A DNA stretch of 64,000 nucleotides from a virus (Duplodnaviria > Caudoviricetes), in IMG/VR virus record IMGVR_UViG_3300027286_000002; one strand, 5' to 3'. Below the pieces are notes generated by a model. That model was not told the origin of the DNA. It ran no database searches and saw only the letters and a program-made list of their open reading frames with translations. Both the position numbers and the translations under genes were made by a program. Within the stretch, counting starts at the first letter, position 1; each line of letters begins with the position of its first letter. Shown here one piece after another: positions 6,401-57,600 of this stretch.

Positions 6401-9034
6401 GTATAAAGTAGCATCACTACCTACACGGATTTTAAATTCTAAAGCTAAAACTCTTGGATCAGTAATATCAACAAAGCATTGGTCGGTAGATAAACCTAAA
6501 GCAATATCTTTAAGGACAGTAATAGGCTGTTCTGTATTGTCATTATATCTAGCAATCAGATTATCTAGAGTAGAGCATTTAGCAGTGATGATTTGTTTAA
6601 GAGTGTTTGTTGTAGTCGCATGAACTTTCTTAACCTTTAAGAATGATCTTACATTATTAAGAGAAATAAAACATTCGGAAGTTAAGAGTGTTGGATCAGG
6701 TTCTGAATATCCTTTATATGCTTTCCAAGTAGTATCGGAAGGCATACTAGATAAAGTGAGTGTAACACCATCTACTTCATTTACTTTAAAGAAGTTTGAG
6801 TTCGTTTGAATCCAATCATTCGGATTAATATCATAGGTGTTATCTAAGACATATAGGTTATCATTGATAATGGCATTATAGCCTTGTTCAATTTGTTTAG
6901 AGTATCTAGTGAAGTATCTAGCAAAACCTGAAATATTTGTATCAAAGGTTTCATTCTCAATAAGATTAGCTGTGTATTTATCTTTGGTTAAAGTGATAGA
7001 AGTGGATTGATCAACAACACCGGGCTCAAGATCAAGAATGGTAGTAGGTGTATCTATTCTTCTAGTTCGTGTAATATTCCTAATCCAAGCAAATTTGCTT
7101 TCATTAAAAAGGTGTTGGATTTCTACATCAGCTGTTAAAGTATTCTTACCTACTTTAAAGAAAGTATTCGCATCATAGCCATCATAATCTTCTCTTGGGA
7201 TAAAATCTAAAAAGGCATAAGTGGATTGAATGATTTCTTTACTGACTTGAATATCATTATAGAGAATGTTGCTAGTGAAATCATAATCTGCATTGTCATT
7301 ATTTCTTTTTTGTAGATCTAAATAAAGACCTGTGGTTAAATACCAATCAGTAAGAATTTGATGTGCAACAAAACCTAATGCCTGTAGGATTTCTAAATCA
7401 GAAGTGTTTAAGATTTGAATAGATGAACTAGCTTTAAGCACAAGGTATCTATTTTCGGATTTAATAGGATTATTAGAAGATCCTAATAGATTGTCAAAAT
7501 GGTCTTGAATTTCCCATGCTTGTTTACTGCCAGCTAAACCACTAAAATTAAGATTTCTAGTGATACCATTGATAACTAATCTAAGTACACCACCTGTGAT
7601 TGTGTATTTGTCTTGTTTAGCTGAGTAAATTCTGAAATCACTACCTTCATTATATTTGGTGTAGGATTTAAGAGGAATAGCACTTTGCACAAAATAAAGA
7701 TATCTACCCTGTTGAAAGGATAAGAATGTAGATTTAAATTCAATATTGATAGTGAAGTCGATAGCATTTTTAACAAGTGTCAAATATGCTTTAGACCATT
7801 TAAGTTCATTTGGTACATCTTCATAGGTAGGATAAATATTGACATCAATCATATCACCCACATTATTGGCAACATAATTATATTTATTTAAGACTGCAAT
7901 CTTTAAACCACTGCCATCAGGTCTTGAACTTGTAGGATCATCACCTGTTGGTAAAATACCTGTACCATCTGCAATAACATCAAAGCCTGCTGTGAAGTTT
8001 GTTTTAGGATTAACTTTGCCATTCTCAATTAAGACAGGTTCAACAAAAGAAATAGGTTTAGAACTTAAGACAAGACCATCATAATAAAGAGTGTAGTTAT
8101 TAGGATTGAGTAAAGAAACCTTGCTTGTTTGTTTACTGATATATGCAATCCCTTTTTCTAAAGATAAGGGAAAAAGATTTTCATCATCATAATATTGAAC
8201 TGAAAGATATTCTCTATTGCCTAATCTTAATAAAGGTGTTTCAAATCCTTGTGGTTTAGGTGAAAGGTAATAAGCATCATATACAGGATGGACGATACCA
8301 TCTGACATATCTAGTGATTCATTAAAAAACCAAATCTCTTTACCTGCATTCGCTTGGATAAAGCTATCTTTAAATTGAACTTTATTTTGATCAACAAAGA
8401 TAACAGCATCAAAAGTACCATCGAAAGTAAAAGGATCAGGTTTAACAGAGAACTTTTTAGTTTCAGTTTGGATAAGGTCTTGACCAACATAAATAAGACT
8501 AACAAAGACATTATCTTCATCAATAATACCTTTAGGTAAAGTGTATTCAGATGTGTCTGGTGTTAAGATACCTAAGCTAACAGGTGACCCACCTTTTAAG
8601 AGTTTCCAATTTTGACCATCCCATTCAAATCTTTGTTTAGATGTATCATTTCTAGTCCAGTGAAATAAAGGTTCTTCGAGATAGAAATTTGCATCAGTGA
8701 GATTATTAACAAGAGAGTAGAAAAGATTAGGTTTAAGGAATTTGGTGGAAGTGGCAACAGGACTTTTAATAGCATCATAGGTTTGGATTTTGTATTCATA
8801 ATAGTTGCCATCCATATTACCTGTTGCAGTGATAGAGTAATTGCGAACAGGATTTAAAGACCATGCGATTTTAGAGTTATTAGTTGAGATGAGAAGATAT
8901 TCAACTTGACCTTGATCAAAGCATAAAGTACCTTGACGATAGGCATCACGATTACCAATAAATCTAGTCGCAAGGCTTGTAGTAGATTGGTTAGTGTTAG
9001 CATTTTTTGTATCTAAAATGATTTTACTAGACAT
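455..9034 (-). CDS. Giant putative virion structural protein (2859 aa), tail/baseplate associated
   Basis: Very long ORF, beta-rich S/T/N/D/I composition, no enzyme motifs, directly downstream of 9042..9602; function inferred from composition and context. Confidence 0.6.
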   Translation of the reverse strand: MSSKIILDTKNANTNQSTTSLATRFIGNRDAYRQGTLCFDQGQVEYLLISTNNSKIAWSLNPVRNYSITATGNMDGNYYEYKIQTYDAIKSPVATSTKFLKPNLFYSLVNNLTDANFYLEEPLFHWTRNDTSKQRFEWDGQNWKLLKGGSPVSLGILTPDTSEYTLPKGIIDEDNVFVSLIYVGQDLIQTETKKFSVKPDPFTFDGTFDAVIFVDQNKVQFKDSFIQANAGKEIWFFNESLDMSDGIVHPVYDAYYLSPKPQGFETPLLRLGNREYLSVQYYDDENLFPLSLEKGIAYISKQTSKVSLLNPNNYTLYYDGLVLSSKPISFVEPVLIENGKVNPKTNFTAGFDVIADGTGILPTGDDPTSSRPDGSGLKIAVLNKYNYVANNVGDMIDVNIYPTYEDVPNELKWSKAYLTLVKNAIDFTINIEFKSTFLSFQQGRYLYFVQSAIPLKSYTKYNEGSDFRIYSAKQDKYTITGGVLRLVINGITRNLNFSGLAGSKQAWEIQDHFDNLLGSSNNPIKSENRYLVLKASSSIQILNTSDLEILQALGFVAHQILTDWYLTTGLYLDLQKRNNDNADYDFTSNILYNDIQVSKEIIQSTYAFLDFIPREDYDGYDANTFFKVGKNTLTADVEIQHLFNESKFAWIRNITRTRRIDTPTTILDLEPGVVDQSTSITLTKDKYTANLIENETFDTNISGFARYFTRYSKQIEQGYNAIINDNLYVLDNTYDINPNDWIQTNSNFFKVNEVDGVTLTLSSMPSDTTWKAYKGYSEPDPTLLTSECFISLNNVRSFLKVKKVHATTTNTLKQIITAKCSTLDNLIARYNDNTEQPITVLKDIALGLSTDQCFVDITDPRVLALEFKIRVGSDATLYTPVFDTPSSDVSIDSITGEITLSNILSSITGDVVFIPLAYQNIEVLISSETTSEFYGLNKPAYIIEEISTDDYVVETTGGNISFLSPLDAGVGIEVEYYTDENTQIVEPILFTIQNETTTKITSSKYSFNPNAYTIEQTVSPQVYVGAEIVGIFDNTKIPTFDYTTNILTLPSENTEDYTVKISYSVKQAIGGEYTIKVVNPIWLPLMQITKGSTGFDIYGDYTNIIKANSVIKSTTEFFVVDTATYANGKTNVTFDTPAKFDSGARSPSDDPKIFVLSNENIFIALSSLTGNNNHVINAKPLSSNLTISEDITAYIQVNTLMFLDTDCYQVKSIRLSDDLTKTIITFTSVLSINVSSEPVITVSARPVYNQNDTKIYAKSFLSDQDYKLIKYDMEYGIGSELVVNYDYSINDATGEIQLNLNHSVQPNVAYYFFHTRPQSLSPFLSNGRLIYPTYKANFNQYIESPYTGKKLFAKCVVNAQDQFYLRVVEQSEYETEINFNSPQTNGRSKSFGDTPKGVGLGIYDDLAKDVIARKNLSDYNQVITNLETLDLDRSVGDQDGAFKFEIIQATSDYFGTGLEDPLTRQLNPRYVALEILNTENPSTYLLPTDPIKIGASFSSLTGGLTGGSTPSASQIDTIINKQKSMIYNDIDDIVLTDTKSVSTYYFLGINSTLYFIWKAMCKDSVFSRLYPEKMQSAYFLGDGDFNFLDTYGKRIGSISNPLLNPITNISSVTLRKRAGAYFVYDYSKTGYASISTNPTFILSSVPLSEFPIDPDTGLPNTNELIPNGSTYSVQSGNPDLVIPPLSIGNLLALSNDNNTFTSIKDRNNPVVVDFTFDYRNATVSDIKQGCYVVLNTTNPIIDNIPLSATFGQTIIQNLSGGDIDNQTPTLFEYRIGFDVKVNYKTGSIIDNSYPSLNDPNLPIKEFVNQNPPSPNECLEGDVFFNYTDTKPFEDLPALNGLNKNDSGLMTIPYNNLNGKERELLNRLTRDIKDILYKTYSSNPVYPDEIRFDLNIDTTTGTLIDNINPTDKNDLTIIKEQGYFQSSSESELIIPRMNIYSNNNNVEYKISNFITGNEFIVYSPVQISAFPFIVYQYRLKFVPSASNYDFTSLFNTQQTPIIFKFIQSQSFTDTCIQFTYNAGTSQWSVITSISSPTSYNISNLDLSTINEIKFQTVGILSSIYGLTPDIPLNTMIPFTCSLNNHSNNAFHNDNNLSINEDRCSISHQYLNFSYFAPHNSTIDSVNVQTELIIGITDISYYDLNTSSTSIQSIASNSSFSANATQPYTFYSQPSTHTLKIPSFFGKGNTTLPYSNIKGNLFTSAKVDTSSNLPTNYTAYFHHSSNPAYYLTLFNISSTITNVLPNDLVFFKGISLIGIVQETALTPTISINLNPSFPKFSSANNTQIQMTDDFDTSTFTNTTIFIQIDSDQTIYKCTGTSYNPTTKIISIGTIVQYDYATNTTTPILTPINLTSGYVTGQTIVDFDNFSSTFPFNANATVNNHTKFFNTNTTSNNKITFSSPTLFLRAYITTATLTYSITTPAIKLNSTAPSLLNANLANPNTTYSTYLNDINTYLFPNPLPNNNPLPNDLTLPVTFSIRRTRRFDKKFSSFQADYIKNFYLRIQTKATSITTLNPYLKTFNYPTNITALSIGDILYQSSTPFARITNINYPSNFTCLIFDQSVVPTSNTLYYAYKQSSRPIEQSLIQLINNDLITQNLILSSNTTVSITNTNQFPFPLSEDISILKTGQYLFIYPNPQAEARSNSYHPTLDDNRGLYHIVEIDTNTRILTLDPVIGTDYLSYDNPYPTDYPFSLIPTVDIPIAQWSIVELSSQSNDLPLPCIAYLLYERLLSYVYNLSSLYASQPYLSTWQDFFYAGYATSSDLDILGLDDTTTITNPQFIDIIGNVDIYPYTPTNQRLSILDRRYYIEDPFLILDGYLNSLPSALKSFLEDTIDSFDLRSSRYYWLNIRANKVNGTLK

Positions 9035-9041
9035 ATTTTGA

Positions 9042-9602
9042 TTATCCTATTTTACAGATGATTGGTGAAACAGAAGGTACTACACTAGCAGATCCGATGA
9101 CTGCACCAATACCTGTACCTGTGAGAAATAAGTTGCTTATACTAAGAGCAAAGGCATTTAAAAGCAAAGGATTTGGATTAGGTATTCCACTAGCAGGGAA
9201 AGCAGATTGTAAACTTGCTAGTAGAGTTGGATAAGGTGCAATGATATTAACAATAGCACAAGCACCTGTGCCCACAATAGGACTAATACCTGTAAATTGC
9301 ATAGGTAGAGTGCTTAAGCAAGTAGCAATCGCTTGAGCCATAGCAGTGGTGTTGGAGCTAACAAGACCATTAGCAATAAAACCTGTTAATGCTAATGGTG
9401 TATTAGGAATGATAATAACTTTACCATTAGCAGTGCCTACACCTAAAGTACCTGTGCAAGTGGCATTAGCGAAAACAGAAGAATTAATCCAATTAAAGAT
9501 ACCTAGACCAAGAGCATTAGTGGATAAGATCCAGCTTTGACCTTTAAGAGCAGGATTACTTGCAAGTAATGTAGATGCAATTAAAGGTGGTGAAATTGCC
9601 AT
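9042..9602 (-). CDS. Hydrophobic A/G/S/T-rich protein (186 aa), probable virion component
   Basis: Clean ORF 7 bp upstream of the giant gene; almost no charged residues. Confidence 0.5.
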   Translation of the reverse strand: MAISPPLIASTLLASNPALKGQSWILSTNALGLGIFNWINSSVFANATCTGTLGVGTANGKVIIIPNTPLALTGFIANGLVSSNTTAMAQAIATCLSTLPMQFTGISPIVGTGACAIVNIIAPYPTLLASLQSAFPASGIPNPNPLLLNAFALSISNLFLTGTGIGAVIGSASVVPSVSPIICKIG

Positions 9603-9681
9603 GAGTGTAAAAATCCTTTGTATTATATTTATATATTATATGTATTGTATAGAAAGCATACACAAACAAAGGTGGAAAAAA

Positions 9682-10956
9682 ATGAAATTTGCAAGTGATG
9701 AAAAAGCACAAATCCAAAAGGCATTATGGGAAGTAGTAAGAACAGCATCAATGGCATTGATGAAATTAAATGAAATTGAAGGTGAAGAGGAAAAATTAGA
9801 GGAAGAAGAAAAACCACAACGAACAGCGAAAAAGGTAGAAGCGATGCCTATTAATCCAACACAAAAAACAGTATCAATGGCAGAAAGAATTGCATCATTA
9901 AGAAGTGGAAATAGGCAACAAAGCACAATGCCAGCTAATAATCAAAGACCTGAAGTAATTAGAAAAGCAAGTTTAACAGATGATAAGATTAAGTCATTTG
10001 CAGTAAGAATAGGTAATGAGATTTTGCCTAAAGTAAAAGATGAGGATTATGATTTAAGAGTATTATTTAAGCATTCAAGTACTTGGAATGAGATTAAAGA
10101 CAGTGTAGATAGTAATTCTATTAAATCTGTGGTATCATCTGTAAATGAACTTATTCAAGACAGGTTAGATCAAAAGTTTGCACAAGAGCAGGCTCAATTA
10201 AAAAAACAAGCATTATTAAAACAAAAGCAGGATTTATTAAAGCAAGCAGAAGAGCAAAAGCAATTAGAAATGGTTGAGGCTAGAAAGCAAAAGTTAGCCA
10301 AAGCACAAAAGAACATGGTGATGGCATCTATTATTAAAGAGATGAAACCATTTGTCAAAGCAGGCAATATGAATACGATTAATGTAGCATTACAGAAATC
10401 AGCAACATGGCAAAATATTAAATCAAATTTAAGTAGTCAAAATGAACGAAATGCTTTTGTTAGTGAAATGATTCAAGCATCAGGATTTTTAAATACAAAG
10501 AATGCAGATTTTCAAAGAGATGTAATTCCACCTAATAGAGATAGCTTTTCCACAGGTGTGCAGACAAATCGTGGTGTAGATAATTTTAAAGGCAAAGAAA
10601 GTTTACCTAAAGGATATTCAGATGACATAGGCAGTACAGCACCTGATTCACCTGTAAATAAGACTTTGAATTTAGATAGATCAGATAGTCATGGTAGAAC
10701 ACCAGCAGTAGCATTAAATAACATTACTGAAGTTGTGCAAAGTGGTGGATCAGCTAAAGTCATCCCTGATAATAAAGGATATGCAAATAATTCTAGTCCA
10801 TTAAGAACATCATCCGAAGATGAAGAATTAGAAAACCTTTGGAATACAGAGCCAAGTGAGGATGATGTAGAGCAGGATGAATTTGCATCAGAAGAATATG
10901 ATGATGGCATTAGTGAAGATATGGATGATGATGATTTCTTTGGCGATGAAGAATAA
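9682..10956 (+). CDS. Hypothetical coiled-coil protein with acidic C-tail and KxAS/RxAS motifs (possible head-associated protein)
   Basis: Start MKFAS after AAAGGTGG; Q/K-rich coiled coil; two similar helical blocks (FKHSSTWNEIK / LQKSATWQNIK); D/E-rich end. Confidence 0.6.
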   Translation: MKFASDEKAQIQKALWEVVRTASMALMKLNEIEGEEEKLEEEEKPQRTAKKVEAMPINPTQKTVSMAERIASLRSGNRQQSTMPANNQRPEVIRKASLTDDKIKSFAVRIGNEILPKVKDEDYDLRVLFKHSSTWNEIKDSVDSNSIKSVVSSVNELIQDRLDQKFAQEQAQLKKQALLKQKQDLLKQAEEQKQLEMVEARKQKLAKAQKNMVMASIIKEMKPFVKAGNMNTINVALQKSATWQNIKSNLSSQNERNAFVSEMIQASGFLNTKNADFQRDVIPPNRDSFSTGVQTNRGVDNFKGKESLPKGYSDDIGSTAPDSPVNKTLNLDRSDSHGRTPAVALNNITEVVQSGGSAKVIPDNKGYANNSSPLRTSSEDEELENLWNTEPSEDDVEQDEFASEEYDDGISEDMDDDDFFGDEE

Positions 10957-11011
10957 TAGATTTAGATAAGAATGTTTAAATTGTAATTGTTTTAGATAAG
11001 AAATAATAGTT

Positions 11012-14000
11012 TTAGCAAGAATGTCTAACTTTATAAATGACATTTAAATATTGTTCAATCATGGTTTGGTCAAAGGTATCATCTTTTCTACTTTCCAACC
11101 AATTTTTAAGTGGCTGTGAAGCACCTATTTTAAAGTCGAACATGGCTTGAGAGATATTATCAAAATAGCTAGTCTTATTGAAATACACTTTATCTGTATC
11201 AAAGAAGATTTTCTCAATCTTATTATTGGTTGTGGCATTGTATGTAGATGTAGTATCTTGAGTAGTATCATCTAGGTGGATGACTCTTAACTTACTACCT
11301 GCATCTTTATATTGGATGAAAGTAGCAATAGATTGTGGATAAGGTACTCTTGGATAATTTGATTTAAGGAATTGGTTATATTTAGTAGTGTATGCTTTAT
11401 CGTTAAGGACACCATAGATATAATCCATAGTATCGAGAGAAGAGAAGGTTTGGTCTGTAGCTAGTGTGGGTTCATCTTGGTGAGATTTAGAGATTGCTTT
11501 CCCAAATTCGTTTAGAAAGTCAGTTGTGAAGTTAGATGATTGAGATGCAGGCATAATGCTACTGCCTTCATTATAGAGAAATAAAGGTGTAGAGTGAACA
11601 CCTCTGTCACCTTTAAAGAATTTAATATCAGGAATTGTTTTTGTGTATTGTATATGTGCAAAATTATCTTCAAAACAGGTTCGAGAATAAATTAAAAATA
11701 TTTGCTCTTTCGCTTGCTCATGTTTTTTGATTTCTTCTCTTCTACGAGCTGTCAATTTACTATCAAAGTAATGTCTAGTGTCAAAAACTCTATATGTTAA
11801 GGTAGAGAAAATACCATCCTCTTTCTTATTTATAGACTGCTGAATTTTCCTAGTGTTTACTGTTTCTGAACAGTCTAAAGGTAAGATACTATTTTTTAAA
11901 TAATTTTCTATTTTCATAGAAAGTCTATCTGAATTAGTATCTAAAAGTAAATTATCACAACCTGTTGTGATACCAATACTGCTTTCTTTAAAGCAATGTT
12001 CTAAAGAAAAACTATTTTGGTCGTATTCACTTTTAATAGAACTTTCTTGATAATATAAGTAATATTCAGGCTTGAATATCTCTATTTTTATAAAATTATT
12101 TTCCGAAATTGAATTTGTTTCCAAATATTTAAATTTACCTTCCTTTGAGCCTTTAATTTCATGATAGTGTACACTAGCCAAATTACCTACTACTTTCTTA
12201 TTAGTCTTAACGAAGAATGAGATGCACACAGGTGTCTTGATGTTAAAAACATTTTCATCTTTAAAATTAAGAATGTAAATCTCATCAAAACTTTCTAATA
12301 AAGACTTTCTCATATTTGTCATACCAATAGAAGATAAGAAACTACTGTTGGAAATATAAGCTACTACACCACTGCCATTTTGATCAATAAGATTCTGTGC
12401 ATACCTAATAAACTTAATGTAGTCATCATTTAAAGCACCACTGCTACCTTTCATAGCATAATCACCCATGAGATCATTAATAAACTTGCCATTATTCTTA
12501 CTCCTACCATTATAAGGTGGATTGCCAAGAACTACCATCACAGGCTGTTCTTGTCTTACTCTATTTGCTCCTATTGCCTCTTCATTTAATTGATAAACCA
12601 AATCACTCACACTCAATAAATGCTCTTCTACATCCACTGCACCATTTAAGGTGTTTGTTAAGTAAATGTTAAATCTTTCTGTATCTTCACTTAAACTGTC
12701 TTTTAATAACTCATACATCTTCATGTGTGCCATCACATAAGAAGGCATCATCAATTCAAAACCATTTAATCTAGGTATCAAATCTTTATTCACATAATCA
12801 TTCCATAAAGAAGGATACTTGTAATTACTCTTGATATATGAAACTACTGAATTTAAAAAATTGCCTGTGCCTGTCGCAGGATCTAAAATCTGTACCTTAT
12901 GCACATTTTCTTTATTTACCATTTCTGTTTTATATGAGTTTTCACCTACCTTTACTTTTTTATTGTAGGTATAGGATTGCTTTTCACTAGATGAAATACC
13001 ATCTTTAATAGCAAACTTAGTCTTTAAGATTTCATCTACACCTTTTACAATATAGTCCACTACTTCTACAGGTGTGTACCAAACACCCATTTGCTTTCTT
13101 AATTCAGGATCATATTGCTCTAAAAAATTCTCATAAAAGTGAATAACTATATCATTGTTAGCCAGCTTTAAAGATGAAATGATTTTACTCATATCCGTGT
13201 TAGCTAAAATGGTTGTGATTGCATCTATCAAATTATTGATGCTTTGGGATAACTCATTCTTATCATTGCTAATGGTATCAAAGAATTGCTTTAATAAAGG
13301 ATTGGTATTTGGGATAAGATTTGAAGCATCTGATCTAGTAAAGATAGCATTTGGATCTTTTTGGAAAGCATAATACCTTGATGCAAATAAACCATAACTT
13401 AAAGTTTGTGCATAAAGGTCTGCAAATTGACTGTTATCAATATCTTCAATAAGCATCTTTTTAAATTCATTTCTATATGCCACCAGCTTGTATTTCTTTT
13501 TGGTTTTAATCTTTTGCTCAATTTCAAGATCATCAGTATTTAAAGTAGATAAGATGTCTGCTTTAAGTAGCTTAGTTTTATCTGCAAGTTTTTTAGCTAA
13601 TGCCAAAGGATTATTAAAATGGATAGTGCTTGCCATGAAGTTATCTAGCAAGGTATTAAACTTATCAAAGCTGGCAGGATTGGTTTCATCTAGTTTGCAT
13701 TTATCTAATAGGATGCCATCTTGGTAAAATTCAAAGTCAATAAAGTTAGTGATAAGCAATTTAGGAAATGCCTGCTTATATCTATTGAATTGGTCTTGAT
13801 GTTTTTTATGAGATAAATCTTCATTAAGGTTTTTAGTTTCAATATAGAAAGCTACCAAAGAGTTTTGAGTATAGACTTCCATATCAATTTTATTTTTACC
13901 TTTGCCTGTTGGTTCATCAGTAAAGACAAGACCTTTAAGAATAGATTTAAGAGCAGGACGATAAGAGTATTCAGAACCATTACGAGATTCGATATCTTTA

Positions 14001-14026: not shown

Positions 14027-14308
14027 TTATATTTCATGTCTTTTTTTGAGAACAAAAGAGTAAAGATCTGAGTCAATCTTTAGATATTTAGGTTGTGCAA
14101 AGAGATAAGTATCTTTGTATGAGTACAGCCATTCTTTTCCATCATGGTAAACATGATGGATTGTGTTGGTGTTTGTAACCAAAAGAAAACTATTAACATC
14201 AAGACTTTTAAGAGAGAGAAAAAAGAAATGATCATAGAACTTTGTGCAAAGAAATTCATTTAAAGTTCCACTTTGTACTTTAAGGTATAAATCTTCTTCT
14301 TTTAACAT
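14027..14308 (-). CDS. Hypothetical protein (93 aa), coupled to the RM gene
   Basis: Its TAA abuts the ATG of 11012..14026. Confidence 0.6.
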   Translation of the reverse strand: MLKEEDLYLKVQSGTLNEFLCTKFYDHFFFLSLKSLDVNSFLLVTNTNTIHHVYHDGKEWLYSYKDTYLFAQPKYLKIDSDLYSFVLKKRHEI

Positions 14309-14317
14309 TTTTGTGGA

Positions 14318-48136: not shown

Positions 48137-51031
48137 ATGGCAAAATATATTACTACTACATCCAGAAACCTTGATCCTAGTTTAACAAATTATGAGAGTG
48201 TTGTCTTTCAAACAGGCAAACCTTTACTTGATAGCGAATTAAACTTAGTTCAAGATATTAGTCTAGTCAATTCCAAACCTAGTGGCATCATTTCAAATAA
48301 AAAAGACATCTTTTCTGATTATGTTTTTAACACTACTCCAAATACCTTAACTTTAAGTGCTTTTGATGTCCGTGTTAAAAATAAAGTCATTAGAATTGCT
48401 TATGCAAATGATAACACAGGCTCAAATAAAATCTCTTTATCTAGTCCACCAGCTACTCAAAAATCTACAACCTTTGTCTTTTTAGAAATTTGGAAAGCAT
48501 TAGTTAGTCCTGCTACTTTACCTAATGCTAGATTAAGAATAGGTGATAATGTTGCCAATGGTGATACGATTACCATTGATACAGATACAATTACTTGTGG
48601 TGTGGATTTTGTCTTAGGTGCTGATAAATATGTCACTGCTTTAAATATTGCTACTGCTTTAAGTAGCTTATCTAATGTAGTCAGTTCAGATAGCAAAGGT
48701 ACAGATTTTATTTTCTTAACTTTAGATACTACTGTTTCCATTAGTACAACATCACTTGCTATTACTGTAACACCTGCCACAGGTGAATCAAGTGGTTTAA
48801 ATATTCCTGCGAATAATAAGATATACATTTATGGCAATGTGCAATCTTTAACAGGTGCTTGGTTAGATGATGATATTTATGATACTACTTTAAATGCAGA
48901 GTCCACTAAGAGAATACAATATCAATATCGTTTCCGAACAGTAGATAACTTTGCAGTAGATACATATCAAGATGGTTTTTCAGATACTACTAATGTTAAA
49001 GCACAAGGTACTAATGGATCACCTACTTCTTATTCTTTTAGTGCAAGCTCAACAGATAATGGCTTATGGATTGCAGGCTCAGGTAATGAAGCATCTGCTA
49101 CTGATTTAGGTACTGTAGATGGATATGTATATGCTTTACCTATTTGTTTTGTCAATCGTAGAAATAGTGGTGGTTTTAATCCTGTTAATCCTAATGGTGC
49201 TTTATTATCTACACATACAGGTGCAACAGAAAATTGGCTAGATCTTGATCCTATTATTATTCCTGCTGGATTAAGCGACAGACCTGATGGTTTATTTGCT
49301 GATTTAATATCTGATGTGGATATCACAGACATGAGAAAGAAAGTGATTGATATTTTAGACAGTGAAAAGCTATTAACAGAGCAAACACATTATCTTTTTG
49401 ACAATAACATTAAGACAGTTCAAAGAGATGGTAGAAATAGATTTTATATAGGCAATCAAATTACAGATGGTGATCGCAGTACAGAACCTTTGGTTTGTGA
49501 TGCGATTGAATATTATGGTGTTACTCAACCAAATACCTATGGCAATTTAATCGGATATGCAGATGGTTTAAGACGAAGATTTTCAGGCTATCCAAATGTA
49601 GAGAAAGTAATCGCAACAATAACAATTTCAGATGATGATCCGACAGCTTTTGCTTATGTAGATAAAGTAGTAGGTACTTTTAATTGGTATGAAAATGATG
49701 AGATCATTTTAGACTTTGGCAACTATTATAATGCAGGCTTTTTTAATCCTGTTACTGATTCATTCCCAACAAGTACAAAAATCATTGATGTCTTAAGAGC
49801 ATGGCATGATGATGGACACACAACTACAGCAGTTAGTCAAAATATTCAATTTAAGAAAATAGAATTTATCTCTGCAACAAAGGTTTCTTTAATCTTAGAT
49901 AAAAATGACTTCACTGTAAATGGTGGTCTATCTGCTACAAGTAATTACCAAATGACAGGCAATACTACAGATGGTGATGTAGGCAGTCCTAGAAATATCT
50001 TTATTGAACTTGCTTTATGTTATCCTGAAGGTAATGGTTTAAGTGCAACACCTATTTTATTAAATCCTGATTCAAGTGTTTATCCACAAGGTAGTGTTAT
50101 TAACGAATCTAGTCTTTTCTTTTCAGAATTTGAAGATGGTGTTTTAGCATCTTTTAATGATACGAATAGAGAAATTGCTTTAGAGTATGTTAAGAAAATA
50201 CAGACAATAGAACTTGTAAGTAAGTCTGCCACAGAAATCTTAACTCCTTTTAAATTCTATGGTGATGGCATTACTTATTTTGTGCAATATGAAGATCAAG
50301 AAGTAGGTGCTGGATATTCAGATGTACTTAATACATCTGATTACAATAAATCCGATGCGAGTGTTTTGGTAAATGCTTTAACAAATGCAGGTCAAACTTT
50401 AGTTAGCTTAAAATATTATCCTTTACTAGCAAACAAAGCTAGAACGATGGTCTATTATAGATACCTAGCATCTCAAACTACAATCCCATCAGGATTAACG
50501 ATTGATGTTGAGCCTATTTATATTTCTAAATCTATGTATGCTATTCAAACAAGCAAAGGCAGTTTAAGTGTATCTTATCCTTATCCGAGTGCAAGTGACA
50601 TGGTAGGTATCCATAGTGATTTTGACTTAGACGAATGGGATTTAAGAGCAAATGCACAGATCTCTATTAGTGATTTTAATATTGATGCTGGTATGTTAAG
50701 TCTTAATAACTTTATGCCTATTGATATTAACACGGATTTGACTTTTACAAGCAAGACAACAGACTCACAAGGCAATACAATTTATGAAGGTGGTTCAGGA
50801 TATTTACCTGTCACTTATTCATCACCTTTCTCTAGTGAAGTAAGTCATAAAAATGTATTACCTTTATTATGTAAAGCGAAATCAAACACTTTATATTTCA
50901 GAAAAGGTGAAGTGCTTTTGGTTTTGATTAGTAGATATGCAGAATTGGATAGTGAGAATAAAATTACATTAGGTAGTAATTACACGATTGCAAGTATCTA
51001 CAACACTAAAAACAGATTGATGATGGAGTAA
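48137..51031 (+). CDS. Large baseplate/tail structural protein (964 aa), paralog of 54684..59828
   Basis: VVFQTGKPLLDSELN, VFLEIW, KRIQ.QYR.R, RPDGL.AD shared with 54684..59828. Confidence 0.65.
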   Translation: MAKYITTTSRNLDPSLTNYESVVFQTGKPLLDSELNLVQDISLVNSKPSGIISNKKDIFSDYVFNTTPNTLTLSAFDVRVKNKVIRIAYANDNTGSNKISLSSPPATQKSTTFVFLEIWKALVSPATLPNARLRIGDNVANGDTITIDTDTITCGVDFVLGADKYVTALNIATALSSLSNVVSSDSKGTDFIFLTLDTTVSISTTSLAITVTPATGESSGLNIPANNKIYIYGNVQSLTGAWLDDDIYDTTLNAESTKRIQYQYRFRTVDNFAVDTYQDGFSDTTNVKAQGTNGSPTSYSFSASSTDNGLWIAGSGNEASATDLGTVDGYVYALPICFVNRRNSGGFNPVNPNGALLSTHTGATENWLDLDPIIIPAGLSDRPDGLFADLISDVDITDMRKKVIDILDSEKLLTEQTHYLFDNNIKTVQRDGRNRFYIGNQITDGDRSTEPLVCDAIEYYGVTQPNTYGNLIGYADGLRRRFSGYPNVEKVIATITISDDDPTAFAYVDKVVGTFNWYENDEIILDFGNYYNAGFFNPVTDSFPTSTKIIDVLRAWHDDGHTTTAVSQNIQFKKIEFISATKVSLILDKNDFTVNGGLSATSNYQMTGNTTDGDVGSPRNIFIELALCYPEGNGLSATPILLNPDSSVYPQGSVINESSLFFSEFEDGVLASFNDTNREIALEYVKKIQTIELVSKSATEILTPFKFYGDGITYFVQYEDQEVGAGYSDVLNTSDYNKSDASVLVNALTNAGQTLVSLKYYPLLANKARTMVYYRYLASQTTIPSGLTIDVEPIYISKSMYAIQTSKGSLSVSYPYPSASDMVGIHSDFDLDEWDLRANAQISISDFNIDAGMLSLNNFMPIDINTDLTFTSKTTDSQGNTIYEGGSGYLPVTYSSPFSSEVSHKNVLPLLCKAKSNTLYFRKGEVLLVLISRYAELDSENKITLGSNYTIASIYNTKNRLMME

Positions 51032-51037
51032 AGAAAA

Positions 51038-54019
51038 ATGCCTACAAGTTCATTTACAGGTGGCAATGCAGGTAGTGGTACAAATAAGAATGTAAATAAT
51101 GTGATTTATGTTCAAGATAAAGGCAATACTACATTTGATGGGTATATAACAATAGATGGAAATTTGACTGTTAATGGTACAACTACAACAATAGATAGTG
51201 TTACTTTGACAATAGAAGATCCTGTGATTACATTAGCTAAAAATGCTAATCTTAATCCTACTGCTAGTACAGATGCAGGCTTGTTTTTACAAAGAGGAAG
51301 TACAGAAAATCCTGCTGTTTTTATTTGGAATGAAACTTTAAATCAATTTGAACTTGCAACAGTAGCAGGTGCAACGAGTGCAACAACAAATTTCACAAGT
51401 CTTACAAAAACATATTCTACTTTAAAAGCAGGTATTTTTAGTGGATCATCTGCTACCTTTACAGGTGTAGTTACTTCAAATGGTCTATCTTTAACAACAG
51501 ATGGTCAAGTTTCAATTAAAAAACCAACAGACACTTCTACTACACCTGCTATTTTATTAAATGCAGATAGAACAGGTAATGGACAACAAGCAGATATTAT
51601 TGCTCTTGAAGTAGAGAGAGGTGCATTAACAAATGCTAAAATTAAATGGGATGAAACAAATGATTGGTGGGATTTTAATTCCAATGTTTATTTTTCTGAA
51701 AATTTGACAATAGGCAGTGATGATACAAAAGATTTAACAATTCTTTCTGAAACCACTATCTCAAATAATCTCATTCCTGTCTATATTTATGTTAAGTATA
51801 ATGCTACATCCTTTACAGACAATGAGTATTTTTATATCTTTAGTACAGACGATAATGGTCTTACAAGAGAAGTCATTCCGATAAAAGTTAATTTTAGTTC
51901 GCCAAAACTAAAATTAAATCAAAGTGCTGGATATAATCGTTATATTGCATATTCAGCATCAACATATAATAACACCACACCACCTACTATCAATGGTATT
52001 GTCTATATTAATCCAAATAAAACTTATTATTTTCATATGGTGAGTGATGCAATAGACTTGTCTAATTTAGATTTTCAAATTTATGCAAGTAATTCTATTT
52101 TAGGATATGCTCCAACATATTGGAAAGTATTTGACGGATATGATGTAAATACTACAACTGCTATCGTAACATATACATTTGTCAGAGGTTCTACTTGGAA
52201 AGAAAGTGATGTTGTTTACAAAGCAGGGATTTTAGGTGGATTTGGATTTATAGATGTTTCTGATATAAGTAGTCCTACTTCTGTGAGTGATATTCAAGCT
52301 AAGACTTCTTTAAAAATCCAAAAAGGTAAAAATGCAATTTTATTAAATAGTGATTACACAGGCAATCCTAATGTAGATGGTTCAAATGTCATTGCTCTCG
52401 AAGTAGAGAGAGGGATAGGCACTAATAGTTATATTGAATGGAATGAAGAAAATCAAAGATGGGATATAGAACCAAGTTCTTTTTCTACATCTTTCGCAAC
52501 AGATACTTTAGATGCTACTACTACTACAATAAATATGTTAGATGCTAATAACATTACAACAGAACAAATTGAGATTGAAAACAATCATTTCCCTGTTTAT
52601 ATTTATGTTAAGTATAATTCTTTATCTTTAGGTGATAGTGAGTATTTTTATATTTTTAGTACAGATGACAATGGTATTACAAGAGATGTTGTTCGTTTAT
52701 CTAATTTAGATCATCTTTCCGAAAACACAGGTGCTGGTTATTATCGTTATATTGCAAGTGCAGGTTCAACATATAATAACACAACACCTACACCTACTGT
52801 AAATGCTATTGCTTATTTAGATCCAAATAAAACTTATTATTTTAATATGGACAGTACTGATATTGAATCTTTAGTGCCTGATTTTTATGCTTATGTAAGT
52901 ACAACAGAATTAGGATCAGGAGAATTACCTTCTTATGCACTTGTATTGAGTGGTTTTAGTTCAAGCACTACTACTTCGGCAAATATTGTTTATACTCTAA
53001 TTACCAATGCTCAATGGAATGGCAATAATATAGTTCGTAGAGTAGATAATGGTACAGTAGAAATTAGTACAATGAATGGTGCAACCACAGTAGATGATAT
53101 TGATACCATACCTCTTAGAATACACTCTAAAAAAGAAAATCAATCTACTACTGCTATCTTATTAAATAGTGATGAAACAGGATCACCTACAAAAAGTGTA
53201 CAAATTGAAGTAGAGAGGGGTACAAGTACTAACAGCTATATTAAATGGGATGAAACAAATGACAGATGGGAAATATTCAATGATCTTAAAGTTTTAGATT
53301 CATCTTCAAATACTACTTTACTAACAGATACTTCTTTTATTTATACCTATAAGCCTTTAAGTTTAAATAATAGTCTATTCTATAAAGTACAAAGAATATC
53401 CTCTACACCAACTAATATCACCTCAGATGTGTCTTTTGTAGTTATAGAAAATGGTGCTTTAGGTAGTGCTGTTTTCCAAATGAATCTTCCTAATTTAAAT
53501 GATGATACAATAGGTGGAAGAGTTATTAATATTGCAGTCAAAAATGCAAACTATGCAGAGATTTACACAGGTGGTACAGGACAAAATATTAGACATGGTG
53601 GTACTATATACTCACCATCAGATGCTTTTATTTTAAGTGGATATAGTTCTGTTCAATTAATATCTCATATTGTAGGTGGTGTTAAAGATTGGTATGTCAC
53701 AGCTATATCTAATTCAGATATGATAGATTATATCACTGCTAGTGGTGCTATTACTATTTTTAATGGCAAGACCTATCACTGCAATCCTGCAGGTACTATT
53801 GCTTTAACTTTAGGTGTTGCACCTAATGGTACACAACTTACATTTAGATCTAGATCTAATCAAACCACTACAATCACTACTGCAAATAGTGGTATTGAAG
53901 GTACACATAATACAATCACCTTCAATTCAGATGCAAAAGGTTTAAGTATATATTATTATGGTACTAGCTGGTGGGTTTCTAGTATGTATGGCAATGTCGG
54001 CATAACCACAGTCCCTTAA
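51038..54019 (+). CDS. Tail fibre-like protein with internal duplications (993 aa)
   Basis: ITIDGNLTVNGTTTTIDS..LTIEDP.I.L; three ILLN..G....EVERG..N..I.W.E repeats; two PVYIYVKYN..YFYIFSTDDNG domains. Confidence 0.7.
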   Translation: MPTSSFTGGNAGSGTNKNVNNVIYVQDKGNTTFDGYITIDGNLTVNGTTTTIDSVTLTIEDPVITLAKNANLNPTASTDAGLFLQRGSTENPAVFIWNETLNQFELATVAGATSATTNFTSLTKTYSTLKAGIFSGSSATFTGVVTSNGLSLTTDGQVSIKKPTDTSTTPAILLNADRTGNGQQADIIALEVERGALTNAKIKWDETNDWWDFNSNVYFSENLTIGSDDTKDLTILSETTISNNLIPVYIYVKYNATSFTDNEYFYIFSTDDNGLTREVIPIKVNFSSPKLKLNQSAGYNRYIAYSASTYNNTTPPTINGIVYINPNKTYYFHMVSDAIDLSNLDFQIYASNSILGYAPTYWKVFDGYDVNTTTAIVTYTFVRGSTWKESDVVYKAGILGGFGFIDVSDISSPTSVSDIQAKTSLKIQKGKNAILLNSDYTGNPNVDGSNVIALEVERGIGTNSYIEWNEENQRWDIEPSSFSTSFATDTLDATTTTINMLDANNITTEQIEIENNHFPVYIYVKYNSLSLGDSEYFYIFSTDDNGITRDVVRLSNLDHLSENTGAGYYRYIASAGSTYNNTTPTPTVNAIAYLDPNKTYYFNMDSTDIESLVPDFYAYVSTTELGSGELPSYALVLSGFSSSTTTSANIVYTLITNAQWNGNNIVRRVDNGTVEISTMNGATTVDDIDTIPLRIHSKKENQSTTAILLNSDETGSPTKSVQIEVERGTSTNSYIKWDETNDRWEIFNDLKVLDSSSNTTLLTDTSFIYTYKPLSLNNSLFYKVQRISSTPTNITSDVSFVVIENGALGSAVFQMNLPNLNDDTIGGRVINIAVKNANYAEIYTGGTGQNIRHGGTIYSPSDAFILSGYSSVQLISHIVGGVKDWYVTAISNSDMIDYITASGAITIFNGKTYHCNPAGTIALTLGVAPNGTQLTFRSRSNQTTTITTANSGIEGTHNTITFNSDAKGLSIYYYGTSWWVSSMYGNVGITTVP

Positions 54020-54035
54020 AAAATGAAAGTATAAA

Positions 54036-54671
54036 ATGATAATCGTAAACAGAAAAGATGATAAAATCATCCAAAGGTCTAGTGAAATCACAATCACAGA
54101 TATGAATGGCAAATACCTTTTAGATGAACCTGAAACCACTAAAGTTTCTTTAGCTAATTCTATTCCTACCATCCAATCCGATATTCAAGATAGCTTCCTT
54201 GCTCTTTATCCAGATTACACAGATATAACCTTTAAATCTTTACCTGTGCAATCCGATTTTGATGCTAGTGCTTTATATACTACTTATCCATCAAGATGTC
54301 AGTTAGGTAGTGATTATAATACCTGTGCTATTTTACCTAAAAATGAAAACACTAATGCTTATGGTGTGCTTATCACAGATACAATCACTACTACAAGTAA
54401 AGATAAATTCCTTGTCTATTGGAAGGTTGCTATTGTTAGCTATGGTCAAGAGCAATCAGTAAATGTAAATGTACCAAGCACAATGACATATGAAATTTTA
54501 GAACCTAGTGATATTCAAGTGTATATTTCTAATGATGACGGTGTATCTTATACAGAGGCGAATTATTTGACACCTGTGAGTTTTCCGAGTGCATCCACTA
54601 CTCTAAGACTAGCATTTATCAATAATTCATTAAATAAAATACACTTATTAGGATATGCAATACTTTACTAG
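54036..54671 (+). CDS. Hypothetical structural protein (211 aa)
   Basis: Within tail operon; VYISNDDG.SY motif. Confidence 0.55.
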   Translation: MIIVNRKDDKIIQRSSEITITDMNGKYLLDEPETTKVSLANSIPTIQSDIQDSFLALYPDYTDITFKSLPVQSDFDASALYTTYPSRCQLGSDYNTCAILPKNENTNAYGVLITDTITTTSKDKFLVYWKVAIVSYGQEQSVNVNVPSTMTYEILEPSDIQVYISNDDGVSYTEANYLTPVSFPSASTTLRLAFINNSLNKIHLLGYAILY

Positions 54672-54683
54672 GAGATAATTAAC

Positions 54684-57600
54684 ATGGCTGATAATTTTGG
54701 AACAGAAGTCAGTAGAGTTCTCAATAATCAAAACACTAAATTTACACATCTCATTTGGCAATCAGGTAAACCACCTTTGGATTCTGAATTAAACTTTGTT
54801 GGACAGCTTGCCAATGATTCTTTAATTGATGCAATTAAACAAACTACACCTAGTGGTTTTCTTGCTGATCCTATTAGTGCGATTGATTTTGAATGTAATC
54901 CTTTAGATAGCAATCAGTTCAGATTAAATTCTATTGATGCTATTGTTAATGGTATGCCTATTCGTATTCGTGGCTGTAATACGAATAGTGAAACCTCTAA
55001 CATCATTAAATTATCTGCACCACCTGCCACAGGCAATCGTGTAGATTTTGTTTTCTTAGAAGTTTGGCGATCTTTAGTTAGTCCAAATCCTTCTACTGAT
55101 TATAAACCTAGTGCTATTACTTTCTATAAATATGGCAACACTCAATTTGGTGGTACTAATATTACAGATGATCTTATTGATAATGACATAGGATTTGAAA
55201 CCACTAAACGAGTTCAAATTCAATATCGTTTAAGAGTAGAAACTAATATTGATATTGACACTTATCCACAAGGCTTAGGTGATCCATCTGTTTTTGGTCA
55301 AGGTAATTCTATTAATCCTGTGACAAGTGCAGTATATACTAATATGGCAAGCGAAGGTGATCCATCCTGCTGGAAAGCATCATCTGTTGATTTTGAATCA
55401 ACAGATAATTATTCCTATGCTATTCCTATTTGTGCTGTCTTTAGACGATCTACTTCTTCTTATATTGCTGTTCTTAATGGTTCATCACCTACACATAATG
55501 GTGCATCTGTAAGATCATCATCTACACCTAAAACCTTAACACAAGCTATTTTATCTGCAAGTTTGACTTCATCTGCTACTACTTTAAATTTAGGCAGTTC
55601 TATTGTAGGCAGTGGTTTAGATGAAGGTAATTCTGTAGGTGATTATCTAGTTTTAAACACAGGCATTAATAAAGAGATTGTTTTGATCTCTAGTGTGAAT
55701 GTAGGCACAGGTGCTATTGTTATTGTTCGTGGTCAATTAGGTACTCAAGCTAAATCTCATCTAGCATCTACACAAGTGAGTTTATATAATGCAAGACCTG
55801 ATGGTTTATATGCAGATCAAATTCATGAACAAGATATTTTAGATTTGATGAATAGCATTTCTTTAACAGGATTTGATTATTCACAGCTATTGCAAAATGC
55901 AGTAAATGACTTGATCACAAATAATTTAAGAACAACTTGGAAATCAAGTGCTACAGGCAGTGATAGTAAAGGTATTACTTTGGCTCAAGTGGATGTTATT
56001 GGTAATCCTAATACAACAAGACCATATACTGAAATTTTAGATGCTCCAAATGGTATTAGAACAGTATGGTCAGATAGTGCAGTGGTTGAGAAAAATGTAA
56101 ATATCATTATTGATCCAGCTACAGCTTTAAATGATGATGGTACTACTGTTGGATATTTTGATAGTGGCTTAACAGACAATTGGACGATTAGTGCAGATTT
56201 AAAACCAACAGGTTTTATGCCTAGTGTAGATATTGGTGGTGGTACATATCAACAAGCATGGTCAAGTGGTGCTGTCATTTTCTTAAACTTAGGTGGTCTT
56301 GATGGTCAAAGTGGTGCAAGAAAAGGTTTTAAGAATAATCAAAAAGCAGTTCGTTTCTTAACTGAATCAGAGGAAGATTTAAAGCTATATCTTATTAATG
56401 ATAATGGATATACCGATCCATTCACCAAAAAAACTCTTTTGCCTGTACTATCAACTTTTGCAGGTTATCCATCTAAAGTAGAAATCTTTGGTGGTCTTGT
56501 ACACTCATCTTTAAAAGTTACAGGTATTTCAACAGTCTTAGCTGATCTTCAAATTAAAAGAATTTCTAATAGTGCAGATGTCAATCTTGAATATTATTAT
56601 GAAATTGATTTAGGTGTAAATCTTGCAAGTTTACTTGATGGTACTACTAAAGTTTTAGGTAATGAATCAGTAGCTGATCTTCTTACAAACTATGGTAAAG
56701 ATAATACAGGCTTTAGTTCTGAATTATTTGCTATTGTTTATGGATCACCTAAAACACAAAACAACCAATCCTTTCAAATTATAGGCATGGGAAAAGATGG
56801 TTTAACTTCTAGTGAAACTGATGCTAGTGGTTTAAATACAAATTCTACCATTCGCTTACTTCGTTTAAATGGTGCTTTCTCTAATTGGACAGAAGATACA
56901 GATGGCAATACTTTAACAGTAGAAATCAGAACTAGAAGAACTTATGCTTTTGATGGTACTACTGCTACTGATCCTTCTTTATGTATCGTCTTGCCTTATC
57001 ATACTGTTTATGAAAATAATGCAGTATCTCAAATTTATGCTACTGAAGGCACATACTCTACATCTAAACTTTTAATTAATGCTACTTTACAATATGCACC
57101 CGGTCACAGTGGTCTTGCTCGTTCACCTGATCAAATCCATAATGTGTCTTTAAGAAATAAAAGCACAGCTTATCTTAGAAATGCTATTAGTGATCTTGAT
57201 GCTACTCAAACTATTTTTGAAACAGACCTTGTTAAATATGATGCCAATACTCATATTCAATTATGGAATGCTTTAGCATCTAAAAATGCTGATCCTAGTC
57301 CTACAGGTAATCTTAATACTTTTGGTGGCAGTGTTATTGGTGGTGCAGATATTGATCGTAATAATGAAATCTTTGCTGATCCAAATTCTAAAACTTTAAT
57401 TCTTAAACCTTTTAAGCAACATAATCTATTATTGCAATCCTTCCGTGCAAGTACATCTACTGATTTGCTTTTAAGTCAATATTATCAAGATGGTGTCACT
57501 GATAAAGATGGTGCAGGCATCTTCACAGGTGCTGGATTGCCTCAAGATTATTTTGAATTTCCACCTATGCACCTACCTAAATTTGGTAGACAGGATATTC

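What the first reader, a model, noticed from the sequence alone, without database searches (positions are those of the whole stretch)
7020..57103. All seven Pro-Gly pairs use rare CCC/CCG codons: CCWGG (Dcm/EcoRII-type) avoidance
Seen: PG occurs only 7 times in the credible ORFs (sites at 7020, 27103, 33206, 34186, 41799, 42819, 57099) and every one is CCC-GGN or CCG-GGN, although this AT-rich genome otherwise prefers CCT/CCA. I saw no CCAGG/CCTGG; about 25 would be expected from base composition (estimate). The PG that remains includes the conserved sheath PGVY motif, suggesting only essential ones survive. Inference: a second host system (CCWGG, possibly CCNGG) shapes the genome.
Basis: partly seen in the sequence, partly recalled or inferred. 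Interest (0 to 1): 0.6.

Follow-up and report, generated by a model that had tools for sequence, protein, structure and literature searches.

The report
Phage purges CCWGG; Pro-Gly codons forced
An uncultured giant phage has removed the 5-letter DNA word CCWGG from its genome, which forces every Pro-Gly pair onto rare codons and thins out Pro-Gly itself; this is a very clear case of the known phage habit of deleting restriction-enzyme target sites.

Summary
The window has 0 CCWGG, against 13 to 40 expected. The 196-kb phage record has 1, against 47 to 142 expected. The window ORFs hold exactly seven Pro-Gly pairs, at the stated coordinates. All use CCC or CCG, although 95% of Pro codons are CCT or CCA.

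The cause is selection on the DNA word. All three frames and the intergenic DNA are clean. At 26 of 26 Pro-Gly pairs shared with a sister phage (PolA 90% identical), the sister has CCW-GG and this phage has CCS-GG. The background rate of that change is 2.8%. There is no deamination signature.

Two qualifications apply.
- **The purge is wider than CCWGG.** It is nested in a lineage-specific purge of CCAG words: CCAGT/ACTGG 3 of 220 expected, CCAGA/TCTGG 36 of 266. More than 20 other words are also purged.
- **CCNGG is not what is avoided.** CCSGG is enriched. But 29 of the 31 CCGG sites sit at Pro-Gly, with 2 elsewhere against 56 expected. Every Pro-Gly must carry CCWGG or CCGG, and the sister lineages choose oppositely.

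Pro-Gly is 2- to 4-fold depleted across the clade, and absent in relatives that purge both words.

This is a known phenomenon. The scan had already noted it in other windows of this genome.

The parts
1..64000 (.). Whole window is free of CCAGG/CCTGG on both strands. It holds 10 overlapping CCSGG hits at 7 places.
   Evidence: One search gives the counts. Searches give expectations of 13 to 40.
7019..7024 (-). Pro-Gly (aa 671 of the 2859-aa ORF 455-9034) encoded CCC-GGT
   Evidence: The sister phage G2 has CCT-GGT at the aligned position.
27103..27108 (-). Pro-Gly (aa 200 of ORF 26950-27705) encoded CCC-GGG
   Evidence: G2 has CCT-GGT.
33205..33210 (-). Pro-Gly of the N-terminal PPGVY motif of the 1682-aa putative tail sheath (ORF 28189-33237), encoded CCC-GGT
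   Evidence: G2 has CCA-GGT. The pair is Pro-Gly in 32 of 40 relatives and PPSVY in the CCNGG-free relatives. The sheath C-terminal domain match is weak.
34186..34191 (-). Pro-Gly (aa 214 of the 369-aa ORF 33721-34830, motif IIPGV) encoded CCC-GGG
   Evidence: G2 has CCT-GGT. The pair is Pro-Gly in 37 of 43 relatives and IEGV in the CCNGG-free relatives.
41799..41804 (+). Pro-Gly (aa 340 of ORF 40782-41825, baseplate-wedge-like) encoded CCC-GGC
   Evidence: G2 has CCT-GGT.
42820..42825 (+). Pro-Gly (aa 328 of the Baseplate_J-like ORF 41839-45108) encoded CCG-GGC
   Evidence: G2 has CCT-GGT.
57099..57104 (+). Pro-Gly (aa 806 of the 1714-aa ORF 54684-59828) encoded CCC-GGT
   Evidence: G2 has CCT-GGA.
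62194..63156 (.). Variable slot between the NAD-ligase gene and ORF 63157-63993. Here it holds a 132-aa ORF and a MUG113/T5orf172 ORF (62725-63069 +). The sister phage carries a C5-cytosine methyltransferase at the syntenic position.
   Evidence: Synteny. PF00145 hits in G2 only. Pfam result.

Best explanation
The window belongs to a roughly 0.3-Mb uncultured contractile-tailed phage. The record held is 196 kb and about 63% complete. Its lineage has been selected to lose every copy of CCWGG because a sequence-specific host nuclease cuts unmodified phage DNA at that word. The most likely agent is an orthodox Type II restriction enzyme of the EcoRII/BstNI/MvaI specificity class. Loss happened by point substitution wherever a silent alternative existed.

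Pro-Gly is a special case. CCN-GGN always contains either CCWGG or CCGG, and CCGG is also a purged word in this clade, so the phage has to choose. This lineage ranks CCWGG as worse and writes all Pro-Gly pairs as CCC/CCG-GG. Its sister and most of the clade rank CCGG as worse and write CCT/CCA-GG.

Shown: the depletion, its frame independence, the 26/26 orthologous flips, the opposite choice in the sister, the clade-wide Pro-Gly deficit, and the absence of a deamination signature.

Inferred: that the agent is a restriction enzyme, that it is host-encoded, and that its word is CCWGG rather than the wider CCAGD.
For: - CCWGG is 0 in the window and 1 in the record, against 47 to 142 expected.
- By frame, CCWGG is [0, 1, 0] against [25, 10, 13] from the synonymous shuffle, with 0 in 11 kb of intergenic DNA.
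- Codon contexts in the other two frames are also clean. NCC-TGG is 0 against about 9.6 expected. CAG or CTG never occur between NNC and GNN.
- Sister phage G2 (316 kb, complete, PolA 90% identical) has 91 CCWGG, 83 of them at Pro-Gly, but only 2 CCSGG and 5 CCGG.
- At 26/26 conserved Pro-Gly pairs, G2 has CCW and G0 has CCS. The same change occurs at 40 of 1414 conserved Pro not before Gly (Fisher p 6e-38).
- All 7 window Pro-Gly pairs follow this rule.
- The tree places the CCS state as derived in the G0/G1/L025 group. G2, L029 and the sister clade use CCW with CCSGG = 0.
- CCGG in G0 is at Pro-Gly in 29 of 31 cases, with 2 elsewhere against 56 expected.
- Pro-Gly observed/expected is 0.23 here and 0 to 0.55 across the purging clade. 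It is 0.8 to 1.3 in distant relatives without a purge.
- Relatives lacking both words have no Pro-Gly and carry PPSVY and IEGV at the two deeply conserved Pro-Gly motifs.
- CCWGG-only purges occur independently in L052, L057, L083 and L092. G2 still has 9 non-Pro-Gly CCWGG against 24 expected, although its CCAGT and CCAGA are not depleted.
- Site avoidance is a documented strategy, mostly against orthodox Type II systems and in non-temperate dsDNA phages (PMC6286503).
Against: - The host is unknown, and no restriction enzyme or methylome was examined.
- In the same lineage CCAGT/ACTGG (3 of 220 expected) and CCAGA/TCTGG (36 of 266) were purged while CCAGC/GCTGG (153 of 135) was not.
- The same triple recurs in the unrelated L088/L089. 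A single agent reading CCAGD would explain CCWGG as a by-product.
- The record is only 63% complete, so a phage methyltransferase in the missing part cannot be excluded.
- Why 29 CCGG sites are now tolerated is not explained. Possible reasons are a relaxed pressure or protection by the lineage-specific N4/N6 methyltransferase.
Confidence: 0.75

Rival explanations
1. One agent reads an asymmetric word CCAGD (D = A, G or T) on either strand. CCWGG disappears only because CCAGG and its complement CCTGG are members of that set. The agent is then not an EcoRII/Dcm-type system. It would be a Type IIS-like enzyme or another defence with a 5-base asymmetric site.
For: - The only three 5-mers purged in G0 but not in G2 are CCAGG/CCTGG, CCAGT/ACTGG and CCAGA/TCTGG. 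CCAGC/GCTGG is untouched.
- L088/L089, on a distant branch, show the same pattern, and a cleaner one: 0/29, 0/35, 0/49 and 25/24.
Against: - The purge is uneven. It reaches 0.9% and 1.4% of expectation for the G and T forms but 13.5% for the A form. 25 of the 36 survivors are CCAGAT.
- The words separate in relatives. The purge is CCWGG-only in L052, L057, L083 and L092, and ACTGG-only in L045/L046. L029 purges CCAGW but keeps CCWGG at Pro-Gly. G2 has residual CCWGG depletion without CCAGW depletion.
- I know of no described enzyme with this site. That statement is from memory and was not searched in REBASE.
Confidence: 0.3
2. Mutational decay. The DNA is methylated at the inner C of CCWGG by a Dcm-like enzyme, and 5-methylcytosine deamination erodes the sites without any nuclease.
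For: CpG is strongly depleted (observed/expected 0.28) and CA and TG are in excess (1.27 and 1.17). On the surface this resembles methylation-driven decay.
Against: - All 26 orthologous changes are at the central W, changed to C or G, not at a cytosine.
- Lost Pro-Gly pairs became PA, AG, KG, QG and the like. None became Leu-Gly or Pro-Ser/Arg(AGN).
- The deamination products CTWGG and CCWAG are below expectation, not above it: 178 against 212 to 246, and 180 against 240 to 260.
- Near-total elimination (1 of about 100) is not what a mutational bias produces.
Confidence: 0.02
3. Translational codon-pair preference. CCC or CCG is preferred before Gly codons for decoding reasons, with no DNA-level target.
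Against: - CCWGG is also absent in the two other reading frames and in intergenic DNA.
- The sister phage has similar codon usage and shows the opposite preference: 83 CCW against 1 CCS before Gly.
Confidence: 0.02
4. Self-avoidance. The phage itself makes a nuclease that cuts host DNA at CCWGG or CCAGD, and it has purged its own genome of the target.
For: Nothing direct. The lineage carries variable cassettes (a methyltransferase and a MUG113/T5orf172 ORF) at slots that differ from the sister.
Against: - No candidate nuclease was identified.
- More than 20 different words are purged, and the sets differ between close relatives. That fits changing host repertoires better than phage enzymes.
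Confidence: 0.05

Closest known systems
Restriction-site avoidance in non-temperate dsDNA phages (survey by Rusinov et al. 2018, PMC6286503; classical work by Sharp 1986 and Karlin, cited from memory)
   Same: Short restriction-like words, mostly palindromic, are eliminated or strongly under-represented relative to composition. The purge is lineage-specific. Elimination of sites of orthodox Type II systems is the typical case.
   Different: - More than 20 words are purged at once.
- The purge reaches the protein level. Pro-Gly is at 0.23 of expectation, Ala-Ala at 0.06 and Trp-Pro at 0.17.
- Two purged words (CCWGG and CCGG) collide at one dipeptide, and sister lineages resolve the collision in opposite ways.
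- The survey does not discuss codons or amino acids: those terms occur 0 times in it.
EcoRII / BstNI / MvaI / PspGI class of Type II systems and E. coli Dcm (CCWGG)
   Same: The eliminated palindrome is exactly their recognition word. CCSGG is not eliminated.
   Different: - No host enzyme is known here.
- Neighbouring non-palindromic words CCAGT and CCAGA are purged too.
- None of the sister phage's five C5 methyltransferases resembles Dcm beyond the catalytic core. They share 25-27% identity, and the NCBIfam Dcm subfamily model scores far below its cut-off.
BsrI-type Type IIS systems (ACTGG; specificity cited from memory)
   Same: ACTGG/CCAGT is purged here to 3 of 220 expected. It is purged alone in relatives L045/L046.
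   Different: It does not explain CCAGG/CCTGG or CCAGA/TCTGG.

Membership tests
Restriction-site avoidance in a phage genome | The word is far below expectation under composition-matched and coding-aware nulls | tested here: met
   1 site against 47 (synonymous shuffle, minimum 35 of 200) and 58 to 142 (Markov orders 1 to 3). The window has 0 against 13 to 40.
Restriction-site avoidance in a phage genome | Depletion is independent of reading frame and strand, and also holds in non-coding DNA | tested here: met
   By frame the counts are [0, 1, 0] against [25, 10, 13], and intergenic DNA has 0.
Restriction-site avoidance in a phage genome | Achieved by substitutions that go against the genome's own codon preference | tested here: met
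   29 of 29 Pro-Gly pairs use CCS, although CCS makes up 5% of Pro codons. 26/26 orthologous flips against a 2.8% background.
Restriction-site avoidance in a phage genome | The host encodes an R-M system with that recognition site | not testable with these tools
   The host is unknown. The record is an uncultured IMG/VR contig.
Restriction-site avoidance in a phage genome | The pattern differs between related phages | tested here: met
   G2 has 91 CCWGG and 2 CCSGG. G0 has 1 and 37. 80 relatives were surveyed and placed on a tree.
EcoRII/Dcm-type (CCWGG-specific) target | Depletion is confined to CCWGG, with one-base neighbours unaffected | tested here: not met
   CCAGT/ACTGG is 3 of 220 expected and CCAGA/TCTGG is 36 of 266, both purged in the same lineage. 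CCAGC/GCTGG is 153 of 135.
EcoRII/Dcm-type (CCWGG-specific) target | CCWGG behaves as a separable word elsewhere in the phage family | tested here: met
   The purge is CCWGG-only in L052, L057, L083 and L092. G2 has 9 non-Pro-Gly CCWGG against 24 expected while its CCAGT and CCAGA are at or above expectation.
CCNGG (ScrFI/SsoII-type) avoidance | CCSGG is depleted as well as CCWGG | tested here: not met
   CCSGG is 37 against 6 to 11 expected. However, 29 of the 31 CCGG sites are the forced Pro-Gly sites, and CCGG elsewhere is 2 against 56.
Dcm methylation with deamination decay | Excess of CTWGG/CCWAG, and substitutions at the methylated cytosine | tested here: not met
   The products are below expectation. 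All 26 changes are at the central base.

The most novel reading that the evidence does not exclude
Pro-Gly is a built-in weak point. Every Pro-Gly must carry either CCWGG or CCGG. In this phage family the host restriction repertoire therefore dictates, lineage by lineage, which codon class all Pro-Gly pairs use. Sister phages differ at 26 of 26 sites. Where both words are targeted, Pro-Gly disappears from proteins altogether, even at the conserved sheath PPGVY motif. Host DNA-cutting defences would then be measurably shaping phage protein sequence, and the Pro-Gly codon class could serve as a quick marker of host or restriction-type switches in metagenomic phages.
Probability: 0.55. Interest if true: 0.55.

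Novelty: new member of a known kind. Interest (0 to 1): 0.4.

Why it matters
The case shows restriction pressure strong enough to change dipeptide content, not only silent codon choice. It gives a natural experiment: two closely related genomes with opposite solutions at the same 26 codon pairs.

The set of purged words is a fingerprint of the unknown host's restriction repertoire. That could help assign hosts to this uncultured giant-phage clade, and help pick enzymes for cutting or cloning its DNA.

It adds no new mechanism. The phenomenon itself has been textbook knowledge since the 1980s.

Tried and rejected
- **Nucleotide search against the phage collection.** A distant blastn with 6.7 kb of the window found nothing.
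- **LR745208.1 as outgroup.** It is the only database phage with a similar polymerase (47% identity). It has 54% GC and shows no avoidance, so it is useless for polarity but serves as a control.
- **Pattern search for CCWGG in relatives' records.** I fetched the records and counted in a script instead.
- **The look-up of encoding contigs.** I reached relatives with the search for related loci on an alignment instead.
- **Specificities of the sister's five C5 methyltransferases.** Comparison with E. coli Dcm showed similarity only in the catalytic core. NCBIfam gave only the generic dcm superfamily. No specificity could be inferred.
- **Specificity of the G0-only N4/N6 methyltransferase.** The best solved relatives are M.RsrI and other beta-class enzymes, which says nothing about its target.
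- **Literature on dipeptide-level effects.** A search on restriction avoidance plus dipeptides found nothing relevant.
- **Rejected rivals.** Deamination and codon-pair readings were rejected; see the rival explanations.
- **Host identification.** Not attempted.
Full report
**What the window is.** The window is the reverse strand of bases 116,765-180,764 of an IMG/VR virus record (G000). The record is 195,689 bp, linear, and 63% complete by CheckV. It has 32% GC and a CpG observed/expected ratio of 0.28. The window encodes a family-A DNA polymerase, an NAD-dependent ligase, baseplate proteins, a putative giant sheath and several proteins above 1,600 aa. The window differs from the stored record at two bases.

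**Check of the observation.**
- CCAGG and CCTGG are both absent from the window. Expectations are 29.6 from base composition, 40 from a first-order Markov model and 23 from a maximal-order model. A synonymous-codon shuffle that preserves all proteins and per-gene codon usage gives 13.1 +/- 2.6.
- In the whole record there is one site. Expectations are 47.4 +/- 5.2 from the shuffle (minimum 35 of 200) and 58 to 142 from the Markov models.
- The window ORFs hold exactly seven Pro-Gly pairs at the coordinates given. Six use CCC and one uses CCG, and 47 pairs are expected.
- Genome-wide, 95% of Pro codons are CCT or CCA, yet all 29 Pro-Gly pairs use CCC or CCG.

**It is a DNA-level effect.**
- CCWGG is missing in all three frames: observed [0, 1, 0] against [25, 10, 13] expected. 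It is also missing in 11 kb of intergenic DNA.
- NCC codons never precede TGG or AGG, except in the single surviving CCC-TGG. CAG and CTG never sit between NNC and GNN.
- A codon-pair or translational explanation is therefore excluded.

**Comparison with relatives.**
- A complete sister genome is G002 (316,221 bp, PolA 90% identical). G000 is collinear with its bases of about 102,400 to 304,100.
- G002 has 91 CCWGG, of which 83 are Pro-Gly junctions. It has only 2 CCSGG and 5 CCGG.
- Among 139 reciprocal-best orthologues (median 78% identity; about 42% of four-fold sites differ), 26 Pro-Gly pairs are conserved. At all 26 the sister has CCW-GG and this phage has CCS-GG. The same change occurs at 40 of 1,414 conserved prolines not followed by Gly (Fisher p 6e-38).
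- All seven window sites follow this rule.
- Twenty Pro-Gly pairs of the sister are something else here (PA, AG, KG and others). Only two Pro-Gly pairs of this phage are something else in the sister.
- Two survivors, the sheath PPGVY and an IPGV motif, are Pro-Gly in 32 of 40 and 37 of 43 relatives, down to 30-40% identity.

**Polarity.** I surveyed eighty related loci, found with a conserved 455-aa protein, and built a tree.
- The clade with at least 53% identity purges ACGT, GCGC and RCATGY. It mostly has CCSGG = 0 and encodes Pro-Gly with CCW.
- The G0/G1/L025 group is the derived exception.
- L026 is 87-88% nucleotide-identical to G0 and is mixed.
- L052 flipped independently.

**Why Pro-Gly is depleted.**
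- CCS-GG necessarily contains CCGG.
- In this phage 29 of the 31 CCGG sites are Pro-Gly junctions. Elsewhere CCGG occurs twice, against 56 expected. In the sister it is 4 against 71.
- Both phages therefore avoid both words. Each Pro-Gly costs one of them, and the two lineages rank the costs oppositely.
- Pro-Gly observed/expected is 0.23 here, 0.47 in the sister and 0 to 0.55 across the purging clade. It is 0.8 to 1.3 in distant relatives that purge nothing.
- L080, L083, L088 and L089 have no CCWGG and almost no CCSGG. They have few or no Pro-Gly pairs in 16-21 kb. At the two conserved motifs they carry PPSVY and IEGV.

**What the target word is.** A lead from an earlier report of this scan (e1-5320855) said the purge concerns CCAG. 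I tested this.
- In G0, CCAGG/CCTGG is 1 of 116 expected, CCAGT/ACTGG is 3 of 220, CCAGA/TCTGG is 36 of 266, and CCAGC/GCTGG is 153 of 135. All four are at or above expectation in the sister.
- The first three are the only 5-mers purged here and not in the sister.
- Among relatives the words separate. The purge is CCWGG-only in L052, L057, L083 and L092, and ACTGG-only in L045/46. L029 purges CCAGW with CCWGG kept at Pro-Gly. L080, L047 and L070 purge all CCAGN. The CCAGD pattern appears again in L088/89.
- The sister still shows 9 non-Pro-Gly CCWGG against 24 expected, although its CCAGT and CCAGA are not depleted.
- I therefore consider a CCWGG-specific agent the more likely reading (about 0.6) and a single CCAGD agent the main rival (about 0.3).

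**Rejected mechanisms.** Dcm-type methylation with deamination is excluded. The changes are at the central base. No Leu-Gly or Pro-Ser/Arg products are seen. CTWGG and CCWAG are below expectation.

**Context.**
- CCWGG is one of many purged words. Examples from the record are ACGT 0 of 124 expected, GCWGC 1 of 159, GGCC 6 of 143, GCGC 0 of 47, ATGCAT 0 of 100, RCATGY 0 of 188, GAATTC 1 of 79 and AAGCTT 3 of 109.
- Other dipeptides carry the same mark: AA 0.06, WP 0.17, PW 0.25, GP 0.27 and VT 0.58.
- The sister carries five C5 methyltransferase genes. Two lie inside the syntenic span and are absent here. This phage instead has an N4/N6 methyltransferase that the sister lacks.
- Their specificities could not be inferred, so any link to the tolerated words is conjecture.

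**Literature.** Site avoidance is well documented, chiefly for orthodox Type II systems and non-temperate dsDNA phages (PMC6286503; review PMC12707154). That survey does not treat codon or amino-acid consequences. My searches for such treatment found nothing.

**Verdict.** The feature is real, very clean and well explained by a known phenomenon. The EcoRII/Dcm label is plausible but not secured. The forced choice at Pro-Gly and its reversal between sister phages is the part worth keeping. The scan had already noted CCWGG avoidance in other windows of this genome.

Noticed in passing
G000 76162-77109 (+), outside the window (locus L105:2162-3109): A 315-aa PF01555 N4/N6 DNA methyltransferase with a TSPPY motif is present here and absent from the complete sister genome. 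The only CCWGG of the record (G000 77475, codons CCC-TGG) lies in the neighbouring 128-aa ORF, which has no orthologue in the sister.
   Followed up: partly
window 62194-63156: This is a variable slot. The sister phage has a 384-aa C5-cytosine methyltransferase at the syntenic position. This phage has a MUG113/T5orf172 ORF (62725-63069 +) and a 132-aa ORF there. A second C5 methyltransferase of the sister (G002 231361-232488) is also missing at its syntenic place.
   Followed up: partly
G000 whole record; window GGCC at 20037: Four of the six GGCC sites left in the record are Trp-Pro junctions (TGG-CCC), which cannot be written without GGCC. Trp-Pro is at 0.17 of expectation. Gly-Pro (GGN-CCN = GGNCC) is at 0.27 and uses only GGA or GGT, apart from one GGG.
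   Followed up: partly
G000 whole record: Other depleted dipeptides map to purged words. Ala-Ala is at 0.06 (GCWGC), Val-Thr at 0.58 (GTNAC), and Met-His and His-Met at 0.44 (ATGCAT and CATATG-like words).
   Followed up: no
G002 (loci L003-L018): The sister has its own private purges: GACAG/CTGTC 14 of 245 expected, GATATC 0 of 55 and GCAAGC/GCTTGC 1 of 46. All three are at normal frequency in this phage. The sister tolerates GCGC (24), CGCG (8), GGCC (37) and CTGCAG (77), which this phage lacks or nearly lacks.
   Followed up: no
G000, the 36 surviving CCAGA/TCTGG sites: 25 of the 36 survivors are CCAGAT/ATCTGG, often within ATCCAGAT. The purge of the A form therefore depends on the next base.
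   Followed up: no
loci L080, L083, L088, L089: These related phage contigs (42-44% GC) have no CCWGG and 0 to 2 CCSGG. L080 and L083 have no Pro-Gly pair in 16-17 kb, and L088/L089 have two in 21 kb. The conserved sheath PPGVY reads PPSVY in all four.
   Followed up: partly
window 26681 and 26747: The window differs from the stored record G000 at two single bases (T/C and C/T).
   Followed up: no
window 37465-38749: Five of the window's seven GGWCC sites cluster in or next to the highly conserved 455-aa protein gene (37569-38936). That protein is rich in conserved Gly-Pro pairs.
   Followed up: no
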